NCBI RefSeq assembly: GCF_030013595.1
Contig: NZ_CP122768.1
DNA from: Escherichia coli
GTDB taxonomy: Bacteria; Pseudomonadota; Gammaproteobacteria; Enterobacterales; Enterobacteriaceae
Strand: one strand, 5' to 3'
Length of the DNA: 64,000 nucleotides
The position numbers were made by a program. Below are positions 24,001-33,000 of this stretch, piece after piece (within the stretch, counting starts at the first letter, position 1; the number at the start of each line of letters is the position of its first letter).

Positions 24001-27000
24001 CGCGTGGCTATCTCGATCAGGCCAAATCGCGCCCTAACCTGACCATTCGTACTCACGCCATGACCGATCACATCATTTTTGACGGCAAACGCGCGGTGGG
24101 CGTCGAGTGGCTGGAAGGCGACAGCACCATTCCGACCCGCGCGGCGGCGAATAAAGAAGTGCTGTTATGTGCAGGCGCGATTGCTTCACCGCAGATCCTG
24201 CAACGCTCCGGCGTCGGCAACGCTGAACTGCTGGCGGAGTTTGATATTCCGCTGGTGCATGAATTACCCGGCGTCGGCGAAAATCTTCAGGATCACCTGG
24301 AGATGTATCTGCAATATGAATGCAAAGAACCGGTTTCCCTCTACCCTGCCCTGCAGTGGTGGAATCAGCCGAAAATCGGTGCGGAGTGGCTGTTTGGCGG
24401 CACCGGCGTTGGTGCCAGCAACCACTTTGAAGCAGGCGGATTTATTCGCAGCCGTGAGGAATTTGCGTGGCCGAATATTCAGTACCATTTCCTGCCAGTG
24501 GCGATTAACTATAACGGCTCGAACGCAGTGAAAGAGCACGGCTTCCAGTGCCACGTCGGATCGATGCGCTCGCCAAGCCGTGGGCATGTGCGGATTAAAT
24601 CCCGCGACCCGCACCAGCATCCAGCGATTCTGTTTAACTACATGTCGCACGAGCAGGACTGGCAGGAGTTCCGCGACGCAATTCGCATCACCCGGGAGAT
24701 CATGCATCAACCCGCGCTGGATCAATACCGTGGCCGCGAAATCAGCCCCGGTGTCGAATGCCAGACGGATGAGCAGCTCGATGAGTTCGTGCGTAACCAC
24801 GCCGAAACCGCCTTCCACCCGTGCGGTACCTGCAAAATGGGTTATGACGAGATGGCAGTGGTTGACGCCGAAGGCCGCGTACACGGGCTGGAAGGCCTGC
24901 GCGTGGTGGATGCGTCAATTATGCCGCAGATTATCACCGGCAATTTGAACGCCACGACGATTATGATTGGCGAGAAAATGGCGGATATGATTCGCGGGAA
25001 GGATGCGTTGCCGAGGAGCACGGCGGGATATTATGTGGCAAATGGGATGCCGGTGAGAGCGAAAAAAATGAGTCGTGATGTGAACTGACTCAGGAACCTA
25101 TCAGATTGAGAGTTACCGTTCTACTATGAGGACCGAATCCTTATATAAAACACTGAGGTAACTCTCATGCTTCATCGTGACAATCTCGCCAGCAAATTCT
25201 AAGCTGACTTGCTCAATCTGGCTGATGAAGGTGCTATGCATACACAGATAAACTACAGATGAAATACCACTCAGCTTAAGAATTACGCCGCTAATGTTCC
25301 TGGCTATGGTTACCTGTTCATTCCCGCTCACGGTTAGCATGTACGAAAAGGGTTCTTGTAACGAGTACAAAAATAAGTCAGACCAAAACCACATGGAGCT
25401 TTAAACACAGCTCGTATAATTTATTAGCAGCGATTTATTTTTACGCTTCTTTAATTAATCATCATGCTTAAATATTTTTTAGCACACGATTATCGCTTCG
25501 CTAACATTTTATTTTACATTCATCATCAATTGATAATAAAAAATTGTTAATAATTTTTTGCAAAAAACAAAAAGTGTTGGAATACTCTCCATCAAATGAA
25601 TGCAAAATAAACAAATTGAGATATACAAAAAGTAAAAACCATTTAAATGAATATTTTTAATTTATGAGCAGAACCCATTAACAATGATTTACTCACGACC
25701 AGAAAAGTAAATAACACCTTGCAATAATATGTATTTATAAATTTATATCATTGATATTAAGCTAATCTTACTTTCTACCCTCCAAATTTATGCAGCAAAA
25801 AAAATAAAAGCAAAATCAATTGGATACACAACAAAGCAATCTCACAGGAAATGATGTTAAATATCTCAAAACTAATAAAAATTACTAAAAAATTAGACGT
25901 AACACACATCCCACACGCCCTGTAGCTCATAGCTTTTATATTTATTTTCTCACATCACTGTAGATAAAAACACGCATTAAAAATGACTTGTAGAAAAGCT
26001 GCACAATAAATAGTTCATATTTAGTCTGTTGCGTAGAACTACTATTCAAAAAATCTTATTAATGAGATAATGAGATTACATCGATAACGTTCTGATGGCA
26101 GGCATACTTATCTGGGTGTGCCTCTTTTTTTTACAACTGTACACGGTGGCGTATGACGAGAAAATATCTCACACAGGATGAAGTCTACAGGCTGATGGAT
26201 GCAGCCCAGAGCATGTCCTTTCCTGAAAGAAATCGCTGTCTAATTATGATGGCTTTCATTCACGGTTTTAGGGCCAGTGAACTTCTTGATTTACGTTTAT
26301 CCGATATTGATGCATCTGGAAAACAACTTAATATTCGGCGTATTAAAAATGGTTTCTCGACAACACATCCTCTTCTTCCTGATGAATATAATTTGATCAA
26401 GTTGTGGCTTAAGCAGAGGAAGTTAATTGAAAACGGAGTTGAAGGAGACTGGCTTTTTCTCTCCCGGAAACGCCGCCCTATCAGCAGACAACATTTTTTT
26501 TCTATCATTCGTGAGGCTGGAAAACGTGCAGGATTAGCTGTAAAAGCACATCCTCATATGTTACGTCATGCCTGTGGTTTTGCTCTGGCTGACAATGGTG
26601 TCGATACCCGACTACTTCAGGATTATCTGGGTCATCGAAATATTCAGCATACTGTCAGATACACAGCCAGTAATGCTGCTCGTTTTAAAGGGGTGTGGAA
26701 AAAAAAGCCTCGTTAAAACAGTACCTTCTGATTCAAAATGTCAGATTCCTACGTTTTCCTCAATTCTTCCATAAAAAAACAGCCCATTCAATTAAATAAA
26801 ACACATAACATGTTGATATTTCTAGCTAAAGTAAAATAATCCCATGATTTGAAATGATTAATCAAAAAGGTCATACCAGTGATTAACTTTCGCTCATATT
26901 GTTAAATAACACAAAATTAAAAACAATAAAAATCAAACAAATTAGATTTATATTCCAAGAAAATTAAATATTCAGGCTATTAAACCAAACCTGACATTTT

Positions 27001-30000: not shown

Positions 30001-33000
30001 CGAGCGGTGACTTGAGTGTTTACAGTGCGGGTTCATTGGATCCTATCAATGAACAAACGGCATTTATTTCTACCGGCAAAGACAGCACTCTAAAAGCCAC
30101 AGGCACAACGGAAGGTGGTCTGTATCAATATGACCTGACACAGGGAGCTGATGGTAACTTTTATTTCGTAAAAAACACGCATAAAGCATCCAACGCCAGC
30201 TCCGTGATTCAGGCAATGGCAGCTGCTCCGGCTAACGTCGCTAATCTGCAGGCTGACACGCTCTCCGCCCGTCAGGATGCTGTCCGTCTGAGCGAAAATG
30301 ACAAGGGTGGCGTATGGATTCAGTACTTTGGCGGTAAACAGAAACATACCACCGCGGGAAATGCATCCTATGACCTGGATGTAAACGGTGTAATGCTGGG
30401 TGGTGATACCCGCTTCATGACTGAAGATGGTAGCTGGCTGGCCGGTGTGGCGATGTCTTCTGCGAAAGGTGACATGACCACCATGCAGAGCAAAGGTGAC
30501 ACTGAAGGTTACAGCTTCCACGCTTACCTGAGCCGCCAGTATAACAACGGTATCTTCATTGATACTGCTGCACAGTTTGGTCACTACAGCAACACGGCAG
30601 ATGTTCGCCTGATGAATGGTGGCGGTACCATCAAAGCTGACTTTAACACCAATGGTTTCGGTGCGATGGTTAAAGGCGGTTACACATGGAAAGACGGTAA
30701 TGGCCTGTTTATTCAGCCATATGCCAAACTGTCTGCGCTGACGCTGGAAGGTGTGGATTATCAGCTCAACGGCGTGGACGTTCATTCTGACAGCTATAAC
30801 TCTGTGCTGGGTGAGGCCGGTACGCGCGTGGGTTATGACTTCGCTGTGGGCAACGCGACCGTTAAACCTTATCTGAATCTGGCCGCACTGAACGAATTCT
30901 CTGATGGCAACAAAGTCCGTCTGGGTGATGAGTCTGTCAATGCCAGCATTGACGGTGCAGCATTCCGCGTGGGTGCAGGTGTACAGGCTGATATCACCAA
31001 AAACATGGGAGCATATGCAAGCCTTGACTACACCAAAGGTGACGACATTGAGAACCCGCTACAGGGTGTAGTTGGTATCAATGTGACCTGGTAAGAATAA
31101 AGCAGTCGGTTCCCCTGTCGACTGTTATACCCCCTGCAGGCAGCATACTGCTGCCTGCAGGCCATAAATATCCAGTATTCATGATGCTGGTTTTTTGCTG
31201 ATATTTAACCCGAACACTCCTGATACAGACTATTAATACAACCCTATCTGCGACAGATTTCATTTTCTGGATATATTATGAATGAACAAATCAAACAGGA
31301 TATCGATCTGATTGAGATTTTATTTTATCTGAAGAAAAAGATTCGTGTTATCCTTTTTATTATAGCTATCTGTATGGCAATGGTGCTGTTGTTTCTGTAT
31401 ATCAATAAAGATAATATAAAAGTGAGTTACAGCCTAAAAATAAACCAGACAACACCTGGCATACTTGTTAGCTGTGATAGCAATAATAACTTTGCCTGTC
31501 AGACCACAATGACTGAAGATGTTATTCAGCGAATTACTACATTTTTTCAGACCAGCCCAGATGTCAAGAACAGAGAAATAAAGCTGGAATGGTCAGGAGA
31601 TAAGAGAGATTTACCAACTGCTGAAGCGGAAATATCTCGCGTGCATGCGTCTATTATCAAATGGTATGCGTCAGAATACCATAATGGCAGGCAAGTTCTT
31701 GATGAGATACAAACGCCTTCAGCAATTAACAGTGAGCTTTATACAAAAATGATATACCTGACCAGGAACTGGTCATTGTATCCGAACGGTGATGGCTGTG
31801 TCACTATAAGCTCACCAGAAATAAAAAATAAATACCCTGCTGCCATTTGCCTGGCTCTGGGATTTTTTCTAAGTATTGTGATTTCTGTAATGTTTTGCCT
31901 TGTCAAAAAAATGGTAGATGAATACCAACAAAACTCTGGGCAGTAATAAACAGCATTCTGACAGAGAGTGCCTGTATAAAACTATAGTGACAATGACCGG
32001 GAAGGGAGCCCGTCTTCAGGAATGGATGCCTGTCTTTTTCACTGTAAATATCCTGGCATTATTAATGTCAGGATATTTACAGAAGAGCAGCATAACCATG
32101 ACGGAACGGGGTTAAGTCAGGTTGTCCTTAGCGCTATTCGCAACCTCGTGCCGCCTTCAGGTTTATGTCCAGACTTCATATCTCTCTCAGCAATCCTCAA
32201 TAATCAGATACACCGCTTTCACCGGACCATGAACCCCGACGACTTTGATAAGCTCAATATCCGCCGTTGAACTAGGGCCGCTAATGATGTTAATGCAGGA
32301 CGGCATTCGTTCACCGGCCTGCGCTTTCTGATGCAATTTTTCTGCGAGTTGCGCTACACGCGGCAGGATTGTGCTTTTACGCAGGATAAAAAGAGAAGAT
32401 TCCGGGAGCAGGCTCAATGAACGCCCGCGCTCGGCGGCGGAAAAAAGAACCACGCCTCCCGATTCGGTTAAACCATATTCAGCATACACGACACCCACTT
32501 TAGCCTGCTCTGCCTGCGAGATATTCTCGGCACCTTTCGCCAGATCCCAAACAACGGCATTGCATTCCTGCTGCAAACGTTCGCTAATCCCCAATTCCTC
32601 CAGCCTCGTGTCACCGCTAATCACGACCGACTGATCTCCCAGCTCTTTACACAGACGTATTGCAGCTTCTGCCGCCTTCGCCTCGCTGGTCAGCTCACAG
32701 CGCGTCAACATAACATCGCTGGCAAACTGAATAAACGCGTCACAGCGCTGCTGTTGGTTAAGTGCGGTAAGCCGCTCGTTAGCATAGTTGTTAAGCGGCG
32801 CATCTTCTGCTTGCGGTTCAAGTCGCAACGGGCGACCCAGTGCCTGAGCAACGTTATTCAAAAATTCGCTCCGATTATCCATTCTTTTTCTCCTGCGCCT
32901 GATGTTTCTTAAACCAACTACGGAAACTCTCTCCGTCAGCTTCAGGAAGATCGCGTGCTTCCATCCAGTCGCTAATCGCGCCAAATTTGAGTGGTGTTTT

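What the first reader, a model, noticed from the sequence alone, without database searches (positions are those of the whole stretch)
25089..31277. Accessory island (recombinase, switch, two LuxR genes, autotransporter) between betA and ykgH with a ~1-kb AT-rich non-coding leader
In E. coli K-12, as I recall the map, betA is directly adjacent to ykgH. Here about 6 kb is interposed, beginning with 1060 bp of very AT-rich DNA without ORFs (25.09-26.15 kb) that is typical of H-NS-silenced acquired DNA. Two LuxR-type genes in tandem suggest a duplication or a two-tier regulator arrangement upstream of the adhesin.
Basis: partly seen in the sequence, partly recalled or inferred. Interest (0 to 1): 0.5.

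Follow-up and report, generated by a model that had tools for sequence, protein, structure and literature searches.

The report
Known phase-variable E. coli island PAI-X

Summary
Compared with K-12, 5,992 bp (window 25176-31167, 43% G+C) sit between betA and ykgH.

RefSeq annotates the same DNA as:
- ipbA (= fimX/hbiF, tyrosine DNA invertase)
- hyxR (LuxR/GerE regulator)
- hyxA
- hyxB (= upaB autotransporter, crystal structure 6BEA)

This is the published island PAI-X, also called the "UpaB cluster". About 1,890 of 5,426 complete E. coli genomes carry it (35%). IpbA here is 100% identical to CFT073 FimX.

The "switch" is hyxS, with perfect 16-bp inverted repeats at 26729-26744 and 26990-27005. 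It lies in the orientation found in 94% of island-bearing genomes, probably phase OFF.

HyxA has no Pfam or NCBIfam match. Its predicted fold is that of a FixJ/RcsB-type (receiver + LuxR HTH) regulator, so "two LuxR-type genes" holds. They share no detectable sequence similarity, so this is not a recent duplication. Published work (AutA/AutR) supports a two-regulator circuit on upaB.

H-NS silencing of the AT-rich leader was not testable.

Minor additions: the switch has been lost by an identical 271-bp deletion in at least three backgrounds, and the conserved leader carries a terminator-like hairpin just before ipbA.

Verdict: ordinary, already known.

The parts
25176..31167 (.). PAI-X / 'UpaB cluster' insert relative to K-12 (5,992 bp, 43.2% G+C)
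   Evidence: K-12 (L002) is collinear up to 25175 and resumes at 31168. G+C. The published value for the cluster is 43.08% (PMC4844996).
25176..26152 (+). AT-rich non-coding leader upstream of ipbA (31.7% G+C). The distal part (25176-25600) is moderately conserved, the middle (about 25650-25900) is hypervariable, and the proximal 230 bp are nearly invariant.
   Evidence: Five-genome alignment. Identity to CFT073 is 95.7% and to O157 87%, against 99.8% and 99.1% for ipbA. No Rfam match. The 93-aa ORF at 25113-25394(-) has only E. coli self-hits, and its ATG is lost in O157.
26100..26132 (+). Terminator-like hairpin (10-bp stem AGGCATACTT/GGGTGTGCCT) followed by T8, 20 nt before the ipbA start codon. 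Function unknown; possibly an attenuator in the ipbA 5' leader or an insulator against read-through from betA.
   Evidence: Conserved in CFT073, O157, L004 and L008, with only CT and T-run length variation. The fold energy alone is not exceptional (z -1.0).
26153..26716 (+). ipbA (= fimX = hbiF), Fim-type tyrosine DNA invertase, 187 aa
   Evidence: NCBIfam NF007370 scores 251.6 bits against a cut-off of 221. RefSeq annotation. 0 aa differences from CFT073 FimX.
26729..27005 (.). hyxS invertible element: perfect 16-bp inverted repeats TGATTCAAAATGTCAG (26729-26744) and CTGACATTTTGAATCA (26990-27005) flanking 245 bp of 29% G+C DNA
   Evidence: The literature gives 16-bp repeats for hyxS (PMC6083910). 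Naturally inverted copies occur in 15 genomes, e.g. L004, where window 26729-27012 lies on the opposite strand.
26813..26840 (+). Best sigma-70-like match inside the switch (TTGATA-16-AATAAT, 10/12), facing hyxR in this orientation
   Evidence: This is a consensus match only. It conflicts with the indirect literature evidence that this majority orientation is phase OFF.
26987..27019 (.). Symmetric right-hand recombination site CCTGACATT-TTGAATCAA-AATGTCAGG. Its outer half (27004-27015) is a direct copy of the left repeat. As RNA it forms a 15-bp hairpin followed by UUUUGU.
   Evidence: dG -25.8 kcal/mol, z -5.05. The same symmetric architecture is present in the related locus L009. The endpoints of the recurrent 271-bp deletion map here.
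27046..27840 (+). hyxR, LuxR/GerE-family regulator, 264 aa (by inference AutA of APEC)
   Evidence: Pfam GerE at residues 135-181, E 3.9e-6. RefSeq annotation. 7 aa differences from CFT073.
27994..28755 (+). hyxA, 253 aa, orphan by sequence; predicted receiver-like domain plus LuxR-type four-helix HTH (by inference AutR of APEC)
   Evidence: No Pfam or NCBIfam hit. AlphaFold2 pLDDT 79.8. Foldseek top hits are full-length FixJ, StyR, VraR and RcsB, E 9e-6 to 1e-3.
28797..31094 (+). hyxB = upaB, type Va autotransporter adhesin, 765 aa
   Evidence: Residues 26-489 match PDB 6BEA (UpaB), E 2.8e-247. TIGR01414 beta-barrel at residues 366-765. 51 aa differences from CFT073.
31095..31167 (+). 3' end of the insert with two GC-rich palindromes (CAGTCG..CGACTG; CCTGCAGGCAGCA-TACT-GCTGCCTGCAGG), the likely hyxB terminator region
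   Evidence: Read directly from the sequence printed.
23400..25088 (+). betA (left core flank)
   Evidence: It is 562 aa here and 556 aa in K-12 because of a 1-nt difference in an A-run, not because of the island.
31278..31946 (+). ykgH (right core flank, 36.8% G+C)

Best explanation
**Identity.** The region is pathogenicity island PAI-X (fimX-hyxRAB), also published as the 'UpaB cluster' or GI-4. It is a phase-variable surface-remodelling module.

**Shown here**
- All four genes are intact, and IpbA/FimX is identical to the experimentally studied CFT073 protein.
- The hyxS switch has perfect 16-bp inverted repeats.
- Public genomes contain both orientations of the switch.

**From the literature**
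- IpbA/FimX, and only it, inverts hyxS. hyxS carries the hyxR promoter, so hyxR is expressed in one orientation only.
- HyxR and HyxA (AutA/AutR) both bind the upaB promoter. One activates it and the other blocks the activator.
- Together they also affect hmpA and nitrosative stress, the K1 capsule, the acid-fitness island and O-antigen chain length.
- Inversion gives reversible phage resistance in E. coli Mt1B1 and E. fergusonii.

**Inferred**
- The window carries the switch in the majority orientation, the same as the CFT073 reference. This is most likely phase OFF (about 65% confidence).
- HyxR = AutA and HyxA = AutR, from locus-tag order and the reported HTH identities.
- HyxA is a degenerate NarL/FixJ-type regulator whose receiver-like domain cannot be phosphorylated.
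- The conserved 230 bp before ipbA is its promoter and 5' leader. The rest of the AT-rich leader is weakly constrained DNA.
For: - **Match to annotated genomes:** 99.9% identity over 6.7 kb to a RefSeq chromosome annotated betA-ipbA-hyxR-hyxA-hyxB-ykgH. The region is collinear with CFT073 at 97%.
- **IpbA:** NCBIfam tyrosine DNA invertase above the curated cut-off, and 0 aa differences from CFT073 FimX.
- **Switch:** 16-bp inverted repeats as published for hyxS.
- **Natural alleles:** same orientation as the window in 1,780 of 1,891 genomes and inverted in 15.
- **Regulators:** HyxR has a GerE domain. The HyxA fold matches FixJ and RcsB.
- **Adhesin:** HyxB matches the UpaB crystal structure 6BEA.
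- **Papers:** PMC3789825 (PAI-X = fimX + hyxRAB; O-antigen length). PMC4844996 (cluster between betA and ykgH, 43% G+C, AutA/AutR circuit). PMC6083910 and PMC6458436 (hyxS flipped only by FimX). PMC11294581 (homologous cassette at the Salmonella T1-antigen locus). PMC12361893 and bioRxiv 10.64898/2026.05.13.724931 (inversion and phage resistance).
Against: - Nothing contradicts the identification.
- On the phase state, the only good sigma-70-like match inside the switch faces hyxR in the window's orientation. Taken alone, that would suggest ON.
- The original paper defining ON and OFF (Bateman & Seed 2012) could not be read.
- The interior of the Salmonella-type switch (L011) is not alignable with hyxS, so the phase state cannot be transferred by homology.
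- Zhuge et al. report that all four genes are transcribed as separate units at housekeeping-like levels in culture. This fits poorly with a simple 'majority state = silent' picture.
Confidence: 0.95

Rival explanations
1. The island is ancestral to E. coli and the K-12-type 'empty' betA|ykgH junction is a deletion, rather than the island being an insertion into an originally empty site.
For: - There is no tRNA, no integrase for island mobility (IpbA is an invertase) and no flanking direct repeat beyond 2 bp.
- Island genes differ between distant lineages (window against CFT073 and O157) by about as much as the flanking core genes. The figures are 96-99.8% for the island, 95-96.5% for betA and 97-99% for ykgH.
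- The island occurs in every pathotype (PMC3789825), in E. fergusonii and in Escherichia sp. MOD1-EC7003.
Against: - G+C is 43% against 48% for the window and 58% for betA.
- A scan of one genome per species with HyxA peptides found the gene in only one other Escherichia representative.
- The island-negative genomes listed show the same ~705-bp spacing of the two flank matches, consistent with a uniform clean empty site.
- The module can move: a copy with ykgH attached sits between IS66 and IS1 in a tRNA-Phe island.
Confidence: 0.3
2. The switch in the window is phase ON: the promoter inside hyxS points at hyxR in this orientation.
For: - The best sigma-70-like match in the element is on the + strand (TTGATA-16-AATAAT at 26813-26840). 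The candidates on the opposite strand score only 8/12.
- hyxR/autA is reported as transcribed at dnaE-like level in cultured APEC.
- hyxR and hyxA mutants have phenotypes in cultured EC958.
Against: - 94% of assembled genomes, including the CFT073 reference, have this orientation.
- CFT073 lacking all five recombinases is described as hyxS 'locked OFF'.
- In E. fergusonii the rare inverted state is interpreted as 'phase-variable activation'.
- In the homologous Salmonella switch, all but one GenBank record is OFF.
- Consensus promoter matches in 29% G+C DNA are unreliable: the scan found fewer sites than shuffled controls did.
Confidence: 0.33
3. The 1-kb AT-rich leader is chiefly an H-NS nucleation and silencing platform for acquired DNA.
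For: - G+C is 26-32% over about 1 kb, with a further 29% G+C block at the switch.
- H-NS generally prefers such DNA (established knowledge).
- H-NS repression is published for other UPEC autotransporters such as upaC (recalled from memory, not checked here).
Against: - No H-NS binding data for this locus were found, and nothing here can measure binding.
- Conservation is uneven. The 230 bp next to ipbA are nearly invariant and include a hairpin plus T-run, while the middle is hypervariable with indels. This looks like a specific ipbA control region joined to weakly constrained spacer, not one uniform functional block.
- By recall, fimB also has a long regulatory upstream region.
Confidence: 0.4
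4. hyxR and hyxA are a tandem duplication of one LuxR-type gene.
For: - Both have a receiver-like N-terminal half and a C-terminal LuxR-type HTH (for HyxR; for HyxA).
- They are adjacent, on the same strand and of similar length.
- The only profile alignment between them is in register over the HTH.
Against: - There is no significant similarity: BLASTP E 0.36 and hhalign E 0.13.
- The pair is already present as two distinct, separately conserved genes in every related locus found (L009, L010, L012, L013). Any duplication therefore long predates the island.
Confidence: 0.15

Closest known systems
PAI-X (fimX-hyxRAB) of UPEC UTI89/CFT073/EC958 = 'UpaB cluster' / GI-4 of APEC O1 and DE205B
   Same: It has the same chromosomal site (betA|ykgH), gene order and 16-bp inverted repeats. 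DNA identity to CFT073 is 97%, IpbA is identical, and G+C is the same at 43%.
   Different: Only allelic differences: 7, 5 and 51 aa in HyxR, HyxA and HyxB against CFT073. The window's haplotype is rare, with only 3 records at 99% identity or above.
fimB/fimE-fimS type 1 fimbrial switch of E. coli
   Same: A Fim-family tyrosine invertase is encoded next to a roughly 300-bp invertible promoter element. FimX also acts on fimS.
   Different: The repeats differ in sequence and length (16 bp against 9 bp). There is one recombinase instead of two. The switch drives a regulator gene rather than a structural operon, and hyxS is flipped only by FimX.
ipuA/ipuB-ipuS-ipuR-upaE module of CFT073
   Same: It has the same logic: Fim-type recombinase, invertible promoter, LuxR-type regulator, autotransporter adhesin.
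   Different: It lies on a different island, has 7-bp repeats, has one repeat inside the recombinase gene, has two recombinases and has no HyxA-like second regulator.
Salmonella T1-antigen locus STM0716-STM0726
   Same: It has a homologous recombinase (72% identity to FimX per the paper), a switch with related inverted repeats, and a HyxA homologue, STM0718 (39% identity per the paper). A locus of this type, L011, was recovered here through a 40%-identical HyxA homologue.
   Different: The cargo is a polysaccharide biosynthesis and export operon, not an autotransporter. The switch interior is not alignable with hyxS.

Membership tests
PAI-X / fimX-hyxRAB island | Located between the core genes betA and ykgH | tested here: met
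   betA ends at 25088 and ykgH starts at 31278. K-12 has the two genes adjacent. The published location is the same.
PAI-X / fimX-hyxRAB island | Gene order recombinase - switch - hyxR - hyxA - hyxB, with near-identity to reference strains | tested here: met
   99.9% identity to an annotated RefSeq record and 97% to CFT073, collinear throughout.
hyxS invertible element | 16-bp inverted repeats bounding a promoter-bearing segment between fimX and hyxR | tested here: met
   Perfect 16-bp repeats at 26729-26744 and 26990-27005. The repeat length is as published.
hyxS invertible element | The segment actually inverts | tested here: met
   Indirect evidence: 15 complete genomes carry exactly this segment in the opposite orientation with unchanged flanks. 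Inversion in this particular strain was not testable.
Fim-type tyrosine DNA invertases (FimB/FimE/FimX) | Full-length match to the curated family model above its cut-off | tested here: met
   NF007370 scores 251.6 bits (cut-off 221) and NF007371 scores 233.2 bits (cut-off 222).
Fim-type tyrosine DNA invertases (FimB/FimE/FimX) | Catalytic activity (R-H-R-Y active site, DNA inversion) | not testable with these tools
   The sequence is identical to CFT073 FimX, which is experimentally active. An HxxR motif lies at 135-138. The full catalytic tetrad was not mapped by alignment.
LuxR/GerE-type HTH regulators | HyxR: GerE (PF00196) DNA-binding domain | tested here: met
   Pfam GerE at residues 135-181, E 3.9e-6.
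LuxR/GerE-type HTH regulators | HyxA: GerE domain detectable by sequence | tested here: not met
   No Pfam hit even at E <= 10, and no NCBIfam hit. No GerE match for any of the 11 aligned sequences scanned singly.
LuxR/GerE-type HTH regulators | HyxA: LuxR-type four-helix HTH by structure | tested here: met
   The AlphaFold2 model has pLDDT 94-98 over residues 131-200. The best Foldseek PDB hits are full-length FixJ, StyR, VraR, RcsB and DesR. This is a predicted model, not an experimental structure.
NarL/FixJ response regulators (phosphorylatable receiver) | Conserved acidic pocket and phospho-acceptor Asp at the end of beta-3 | tested here: not met
   HyxA has a beta-alpha x5 receiver-like fold, but beta-1 is followed by CPSG and beta-3 (VVISA) by GRP, with no Asp. 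HyxR keeps an invariant Asp53 after the predicted beta-3 but lacks the acidic pair after beta-1. Its model is too poor to judge (pLDDT 43.6).
Type Va (classical) autotransporters / UpaB | C-terminal beta-barrel translocator plus a passenger homologous to UpaB | tested here: met
   TIGR01414 at residues 366-765, E 2.8e-69. Residues 26-489 match 6BEA (UpaB), E 2.8e-247.
Classical integrative genomic island | tRNA or att-site insertion, island integrase, flanking direct repeats | tested here: not met
   No tRNA gene is annotated between betB and ykgE; no dedicated tRNA scan was run. Only 2 bp are shared at the junctions. The sole recombinase is an invertase.
H-NS-silenced xenogeneic DNA | H-NS occupancy and derepression in an hns mutant | not testable with these tools
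   Only base composition is available (26-32% G+C). No published binding data were found.

The most novel reading that the evidence does not exclude
hyxS may be a three-state element rather than a two-state one. Besides ON and OFF, the whole invertible promoter has repeatedly been lost by an identical 271-bp deletion between the left repeat and the direct copy in the symmetric right-hand site. This leaves hyxR 58 bp behind ipbA.

The crossover spacer (TTGAATCAA) differs from its own reverse complement only at the central base. FimX itself might therefore catalyse excision as well as inversion, giving an irreversible 'lock' that selection can fix.

The existence and recurrence of the allele are shown here. 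Involvement of the recombinase is speculative: slippage or short-homology recombination at the 12-bp direct repeat gives the same product.
Probability: 0.3. Interest if true: 0.4.

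Novelty: already known. Interest (0 to 1): 0.12.

Why it matters
**Known importance.** PAI-X is a marker of extraintestinal pathogenic E. coli. It couples a stochastic DNA switch to two regulators that reshape the cell surface through:
- the UpaB adhesin
- the capsule
- O-antigen length
- acid and nitrosative stress responses

Recent work also shows that the switch gives reversible phage resistance. All of this is published, so the finding adds nothing new about E. coli biology. It does show that the first-stage reader can recognise a phase-variable island from raw sequence.

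**Small additions from this check**
- A census of switch states in 1,891 complete genomes: 94% in one orientation, 0.8% inverted, and about 5% deleted or disrupted.
- Recurrent precise loss of the switch in at least three backgrounds.
- Fold-level support that the orphan protein HyxA is a degenerate FixJ/RcsB-type regulator.
- HyxR-like and HyxA-like genes travel as a conserved pair with different cargo.

Tried and rejected
- **Rfam (24500-32000, E <= 1).** No RNA family matched in the leader, the switch or elsewhere.
- **93-aa ORF at 25113-25394(-), which straddles the island junction.** The search returned only E. coli copies of itself with no annotation. Its start codon and C-terminus are not preserved in O157-type alleles, and variable sites fall 6/11/15 by codon position. 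I rejected it as a gene.
- **51-aa hydrophobic ORF at 25775-25930(-).** PGAP annotates an overlapping 44-aa ORF in O157 and marks it frameshifted in L004, but leaves it unannotated in the near-identical genome H1. It lies in the hypervariable part of the leader. I treated it as spurious.
- **Phase state by homology to the Salmonella-type switch.** The interior of the L011 switch is not alignable with hyxS.
- **Original papers.** Bateman & Seed 2012 and Bateman et al. 2013 are not held in the library.
- **HyxR structure.** The AlphaFold2 model has pLDDT 43.6, too poor for a fold search, so it was not used.
- **Species-wide scan with the HyxA family alignment.** The single-protein scan found one locus only, so outgroups do not settle insertion against deletion.
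- **'Distant' HyxA hits P0029-P0031.** These are frameshifted translations of the same E. coli DNA, not real homologues.
- **Counting the deletion allele by coverage.** This failed because BLAST pieces across the switch were joined. The count rests instead on single-piece 101-bp matches: at least 58 of the 60 rows listed, with 91 records at 99% identity or above.

Full report

Yes. betA ends at 25088 and ykgH starts at 31278. Between them lie four intact same-strand ORFs at 26153-26716, 27046-27840, 27994-28755 and 28797-31094.

The spacer between betA and the first ORF is 1,064 bp at 32.4% G+C, falling to 26% for 25400-26000. The whole window is 48.4% and betA is 57.6%. Every reading frame in the spacer has 20-31 stops, and the longest open stretch is 95 codons.

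In a K-12 derivative (ER2683), betA and ykgH are separated by only 212 bp. Aligning that spacer to the window shows collinearity up to 25175, resuming at 31168. The insert is therefore 25176-31167 (5,992 bp, 43.2% G+C). Only 2 bp are ambiguous at the junction and there are no flanking direct repeats.

The six extra codons of betA here (562 aa against 556 aa) come from a 1-nt difference in an A-run just before the K-12 stop codon. They do not come from the island.

**2. What is it?**

megablast of 24800-31500 against 5,426 complete E. coli genomes gave these results:
- 1,831 genomes contain at least 80% of the query.
- 1,891 genomes match the switch region.
- The island-negative genomes listed (H12-H28) match only the two flanks, about 705 bp apart.

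RefSeq annotates the best match (99.9% identity) as betA - ipbA ([quoted passage not shown]) - hyxR - hyxA - hyxB - ykgH. CFT073 is collinear over the whole region at 97%.

The literature describes exactly this unit:
- The "UpaB cluster inserted between betA and ykgH", G+C 43.08%, with two LuxR/GerE-type regulators AutA and AutR (PMC4844996).

**3. The parts**

- **IpbA.** It scores above the curated cut-off of the NCBIfam tyrosine DNA invertase models. It has no amino-acid difference from CFT073 FimX.
- **hyxS switch.** It has perfect 16-bp inverted repeats, TGATTCAAAATGTCAG at 26729-26744 and its complement at 26990-27005, around 245 bp of 29% G+C DNA. Sixteen bp is the published repeat length for hyxS (PMC6083910).
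- **HyxR.** It has a Pfam GerE domain at residues 135-181, E 3.9e-6.
- **HyxB.** Residues 26-489 match the UpaB crystal structure 6BEA (E 2.8e-247), and there is a C-terminal autotransporter barrel.
- **HyxA.** It has no Pfam or NCBIfam match.
  - Its family is tiny: 28 representatives at E <= 0.001 among 1.84 billion proteins, many of them fragments.
  - An AlphaFold2 model built on the few true homologues is reasonably confident (pLDDT 79.8). It shows a five-fold beta-alpha receiver-like domain followed by a four-helix bundle.
  - The best Foldseek matches in the PDB are full-length FixJ, StyR, VraR, RcsB and DesR.
  - The receiver-like domain lacks the acidic pocket and the phospho-acceptor Asp: GRP follows beta-3.

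So "two LuxR-type genes" is right at the level of fold. The two proteins show no significant sequence similarity, with BLASTP E 0.36 and profile E 0.13. A recent tandem duplication is therefore not supported.

In every related locus I could recover, a HyxR-like gene (53-67% identical to HyxR) directly precedes the HyxA-like gene. The pair is a conserved unit.

**4. How it works**

Published experiments show the following:
- Only FimX inverts hyxS, and inversion switches hyxR expression (PMC6083910, PMC6458436).
- AutA activates upaB and AutR blocks that activation. Both bind the upaB promoter.
- Together they control the acid-fitness island and the K1 capsule (PMC4844996).
- hyxR and hyxA mutants change O-antigen chain length and serum resistance (PMC3789825).
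- hyxS inversion underlies transient phage resistance in E. coli Mt1B1 (PMC12361893) and reversible phage resistance in E. fergusonii (bioRxiv 10.64898/2026.05.13.724931).

From locus-tag order (integrase 1681, AutA 1682, AutR 1683) and the reported HTH identities to GerE (37% against 24%), I infer that AutA = HyxR and AutR = HyxA.

A homologous cassette of recombinase, switch and HyxA-like gene drives the Salmonella T1 polysaccharide locus (PMC11294581). I recovered a locus of that type independently through a HyxA homologue (L011). I also recovered plasmid loci in which the regulator pair sits next to a CaiF/GrlA-like gene without any recombinase (L012 and L013).

**5. State of the switch in the window**

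Census of the 1,891 island-bearing genomes:

| Switch state | Genomes | Source |
|---|---|---|
| Same orientation as the window | 1,780 (94%), including the CFT073 reference | |
| Exactly inverted | 15 (0.8%), e.g. L004 | |
| Deleted or disrupted | about 96 | by subtraction |

The evidence that the majority orientation is phase OFF is indirect:
- CFT073 without recombinases is described as "locked OFF".
- In E. fergusonii the rare inverted state is interpreted as activation.
- In the Salmonella counterpart nearly all database records are OFF.

Against this, the best sigma-70-like match in the element (26813-26840, 10/12) faces hyxR in the window's orientation. I rate OFF at about 65% and leave it open. 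The paper that defined the states could not be read.

**6. Things not obviously in the literature I could read**

(a) *A recurrent deletion of the switch.*
- In THO-006 the ipbA-hyxR spacer is 58 bp instead of 329 bp. Exactly 271 bp are missing between the left repeat and a direct copy of it (27004-27015) in the outer half of the right-hand site.
- At least 58 genomes give a single uninterrupted match to this junction.
- The deletion occurs in at least three backgrounds:
  - ST73-like strains (clone D i14, THO-006). Their island proteins are identical to those of CFT073, which has the intact switch.
  - An allele group shared by APEC O78:H4 and strain 2009C-3133.
  - The divergent Escherichia sp. 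MOD1-EC7003, 85-94% identical.
- The right-hand site is a symmetric CCTGACATT-TTGAATCAA-AATGTCAGG, a 15-bp RNA hairpin with z -5. Its 9-bp spacer differs from its own reverse complement only at the centre. Recombinase-mediated excision is therefore conceivable, but slippage at the 12-bp direct repeat gives the same product.

(b) *Uneven conservation of the leader.*
- The 230 bp before ipbA are almost invariant among divergent alleles. They include a 10-bp-stem hairpin followed by T8 at 26100-26132, only 20 nt before the start codon.
- The middle of the leader (about 25650-25900) is hypervariable with indels.
- The leader as a whole is the least conserved part of the island, at 95.7% and 87% identity, against 99.8% and 99.1% for ipbA.

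**7. Origin**

The low G+C, the patchy distribution and the existence of a transposed copy argue for acquisition. The transposed copy spans the 3' end of ipbA to ykgH and sits between IS66 and IS1 in a tRNA-Phe island of strain RM14721.

Against that, there are no mobility signatures at the betA|ykgH site. Island divergence is similar to that of the flanking core genes. An old acquisition followed by losses remains possible. Outgroup data were too sparse to decide.

**8. Verdict**

The feature is PAI-X, which is already known and experimentally characterised.

H-NS silencing of the leader remains untested. I found no relevant data.

Interest is low. The only mildly novel leads are the recurrent precise loss of the switch and the conserved terminator-like hairpin in the ipbA leader.

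Noticed in passing
window 26729-27015; L005 1600-1700; L018, L019, L020; L017 1140-1180: An identical 271-bp deletion removes the whole hyxS switch and leaves hyxR 58 bp behind ipbA. It is seen in at least 58 complete genomes and at least three backgrounds (ST73-like, an APEC O78:H4/2009C-3133 allele group, and Escherichia sp. MOD1-EC7003). That is about four to six times more genomes than carry the inverted orientation (15).
   Followed up: partly
window 26100-26132 (+): A conserved terminator-like hairpin followed by T8 lies only 20 nt upstream of the ipbA start codon, inside the nearly invariant 230 bp of the leader. It may be an attenuator or a read-through insulator. Its function is unknown.
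   Followed up: partly
L007 8001-13528 (E. coli RM14721, dog): A second-site copy covers the truncated 3' end of the recombinase, the switch in the inverted orientation, hyxRAB and a ykgH copy. It is about 95% identical to window 26600-32181 and sits between IS66 and IS1 inside a tRNA-Phe-linked island. With no intact linked recombinase, the switch there is presumably locked. Five other genomes (four from dogs) show the same 'DNA recombinase | hyxR' annotation.
   Followed up: partly
window 13256-18643: Between pdeL and betT, an AIDA-I/ECSE_1600-type autotransporter gene is split into two fragments (872 aa at 13256-15874 and 499 aa at 17144-18643, both on the - strand). An IS4-family transposase gene (15926-17134, +) separates them. 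CFT073 has no such gene at this position.
   Followed up: partly
window 25061-25088: betA is 562 aa here and in other island-bearing strains such as O157, but 556 aa in K-12 and CFT073. The cause is a 1-nt difference in an A-run that shifts the stop codon. It is unrelated to the island junction, which lies 87 bp further on.
   Followed up: yes
window 31278-31946 (ykgH): ykgH is itself AT-rich (36.8% G+C). Its N-terminus weakly resembles polysaccharide chain-length determinant (Wzz/PCP-type) proteins (TIGR01006, E 0.009, residues 4-36 only). This may be coincidence, but HyxR and HyxA influence O-antigen chain length, and ykgH travelled with hyxRAB in the transposed copy.
   Followed up: no
L003 (O157 AR-0430) 4409-8252; L008 6245-7458: Some lineages carry decayed or disrupted versions of the island. 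O157:H7 has a frameshifted ipbA, an internal stop in hyxR, a hyxB with a 1-kb deletion, and a ykgH with an internal stop. Strain CUVET18-565 has an IS3 element inserted in the switch.
   Followed up: partly
L012 7182-9207; L013 6343-8380: HyxR-like and HyxA-like genes also occur as a pair next to a CaiF/GrlA-family regulator gene, without any recombinase. One of the two contigs (L013) is plasmid-like, with ParA/ParB and Rep3 genes. The regulator pair is therefore a portable unit, independent of the invertible switch.
   Followed up: no
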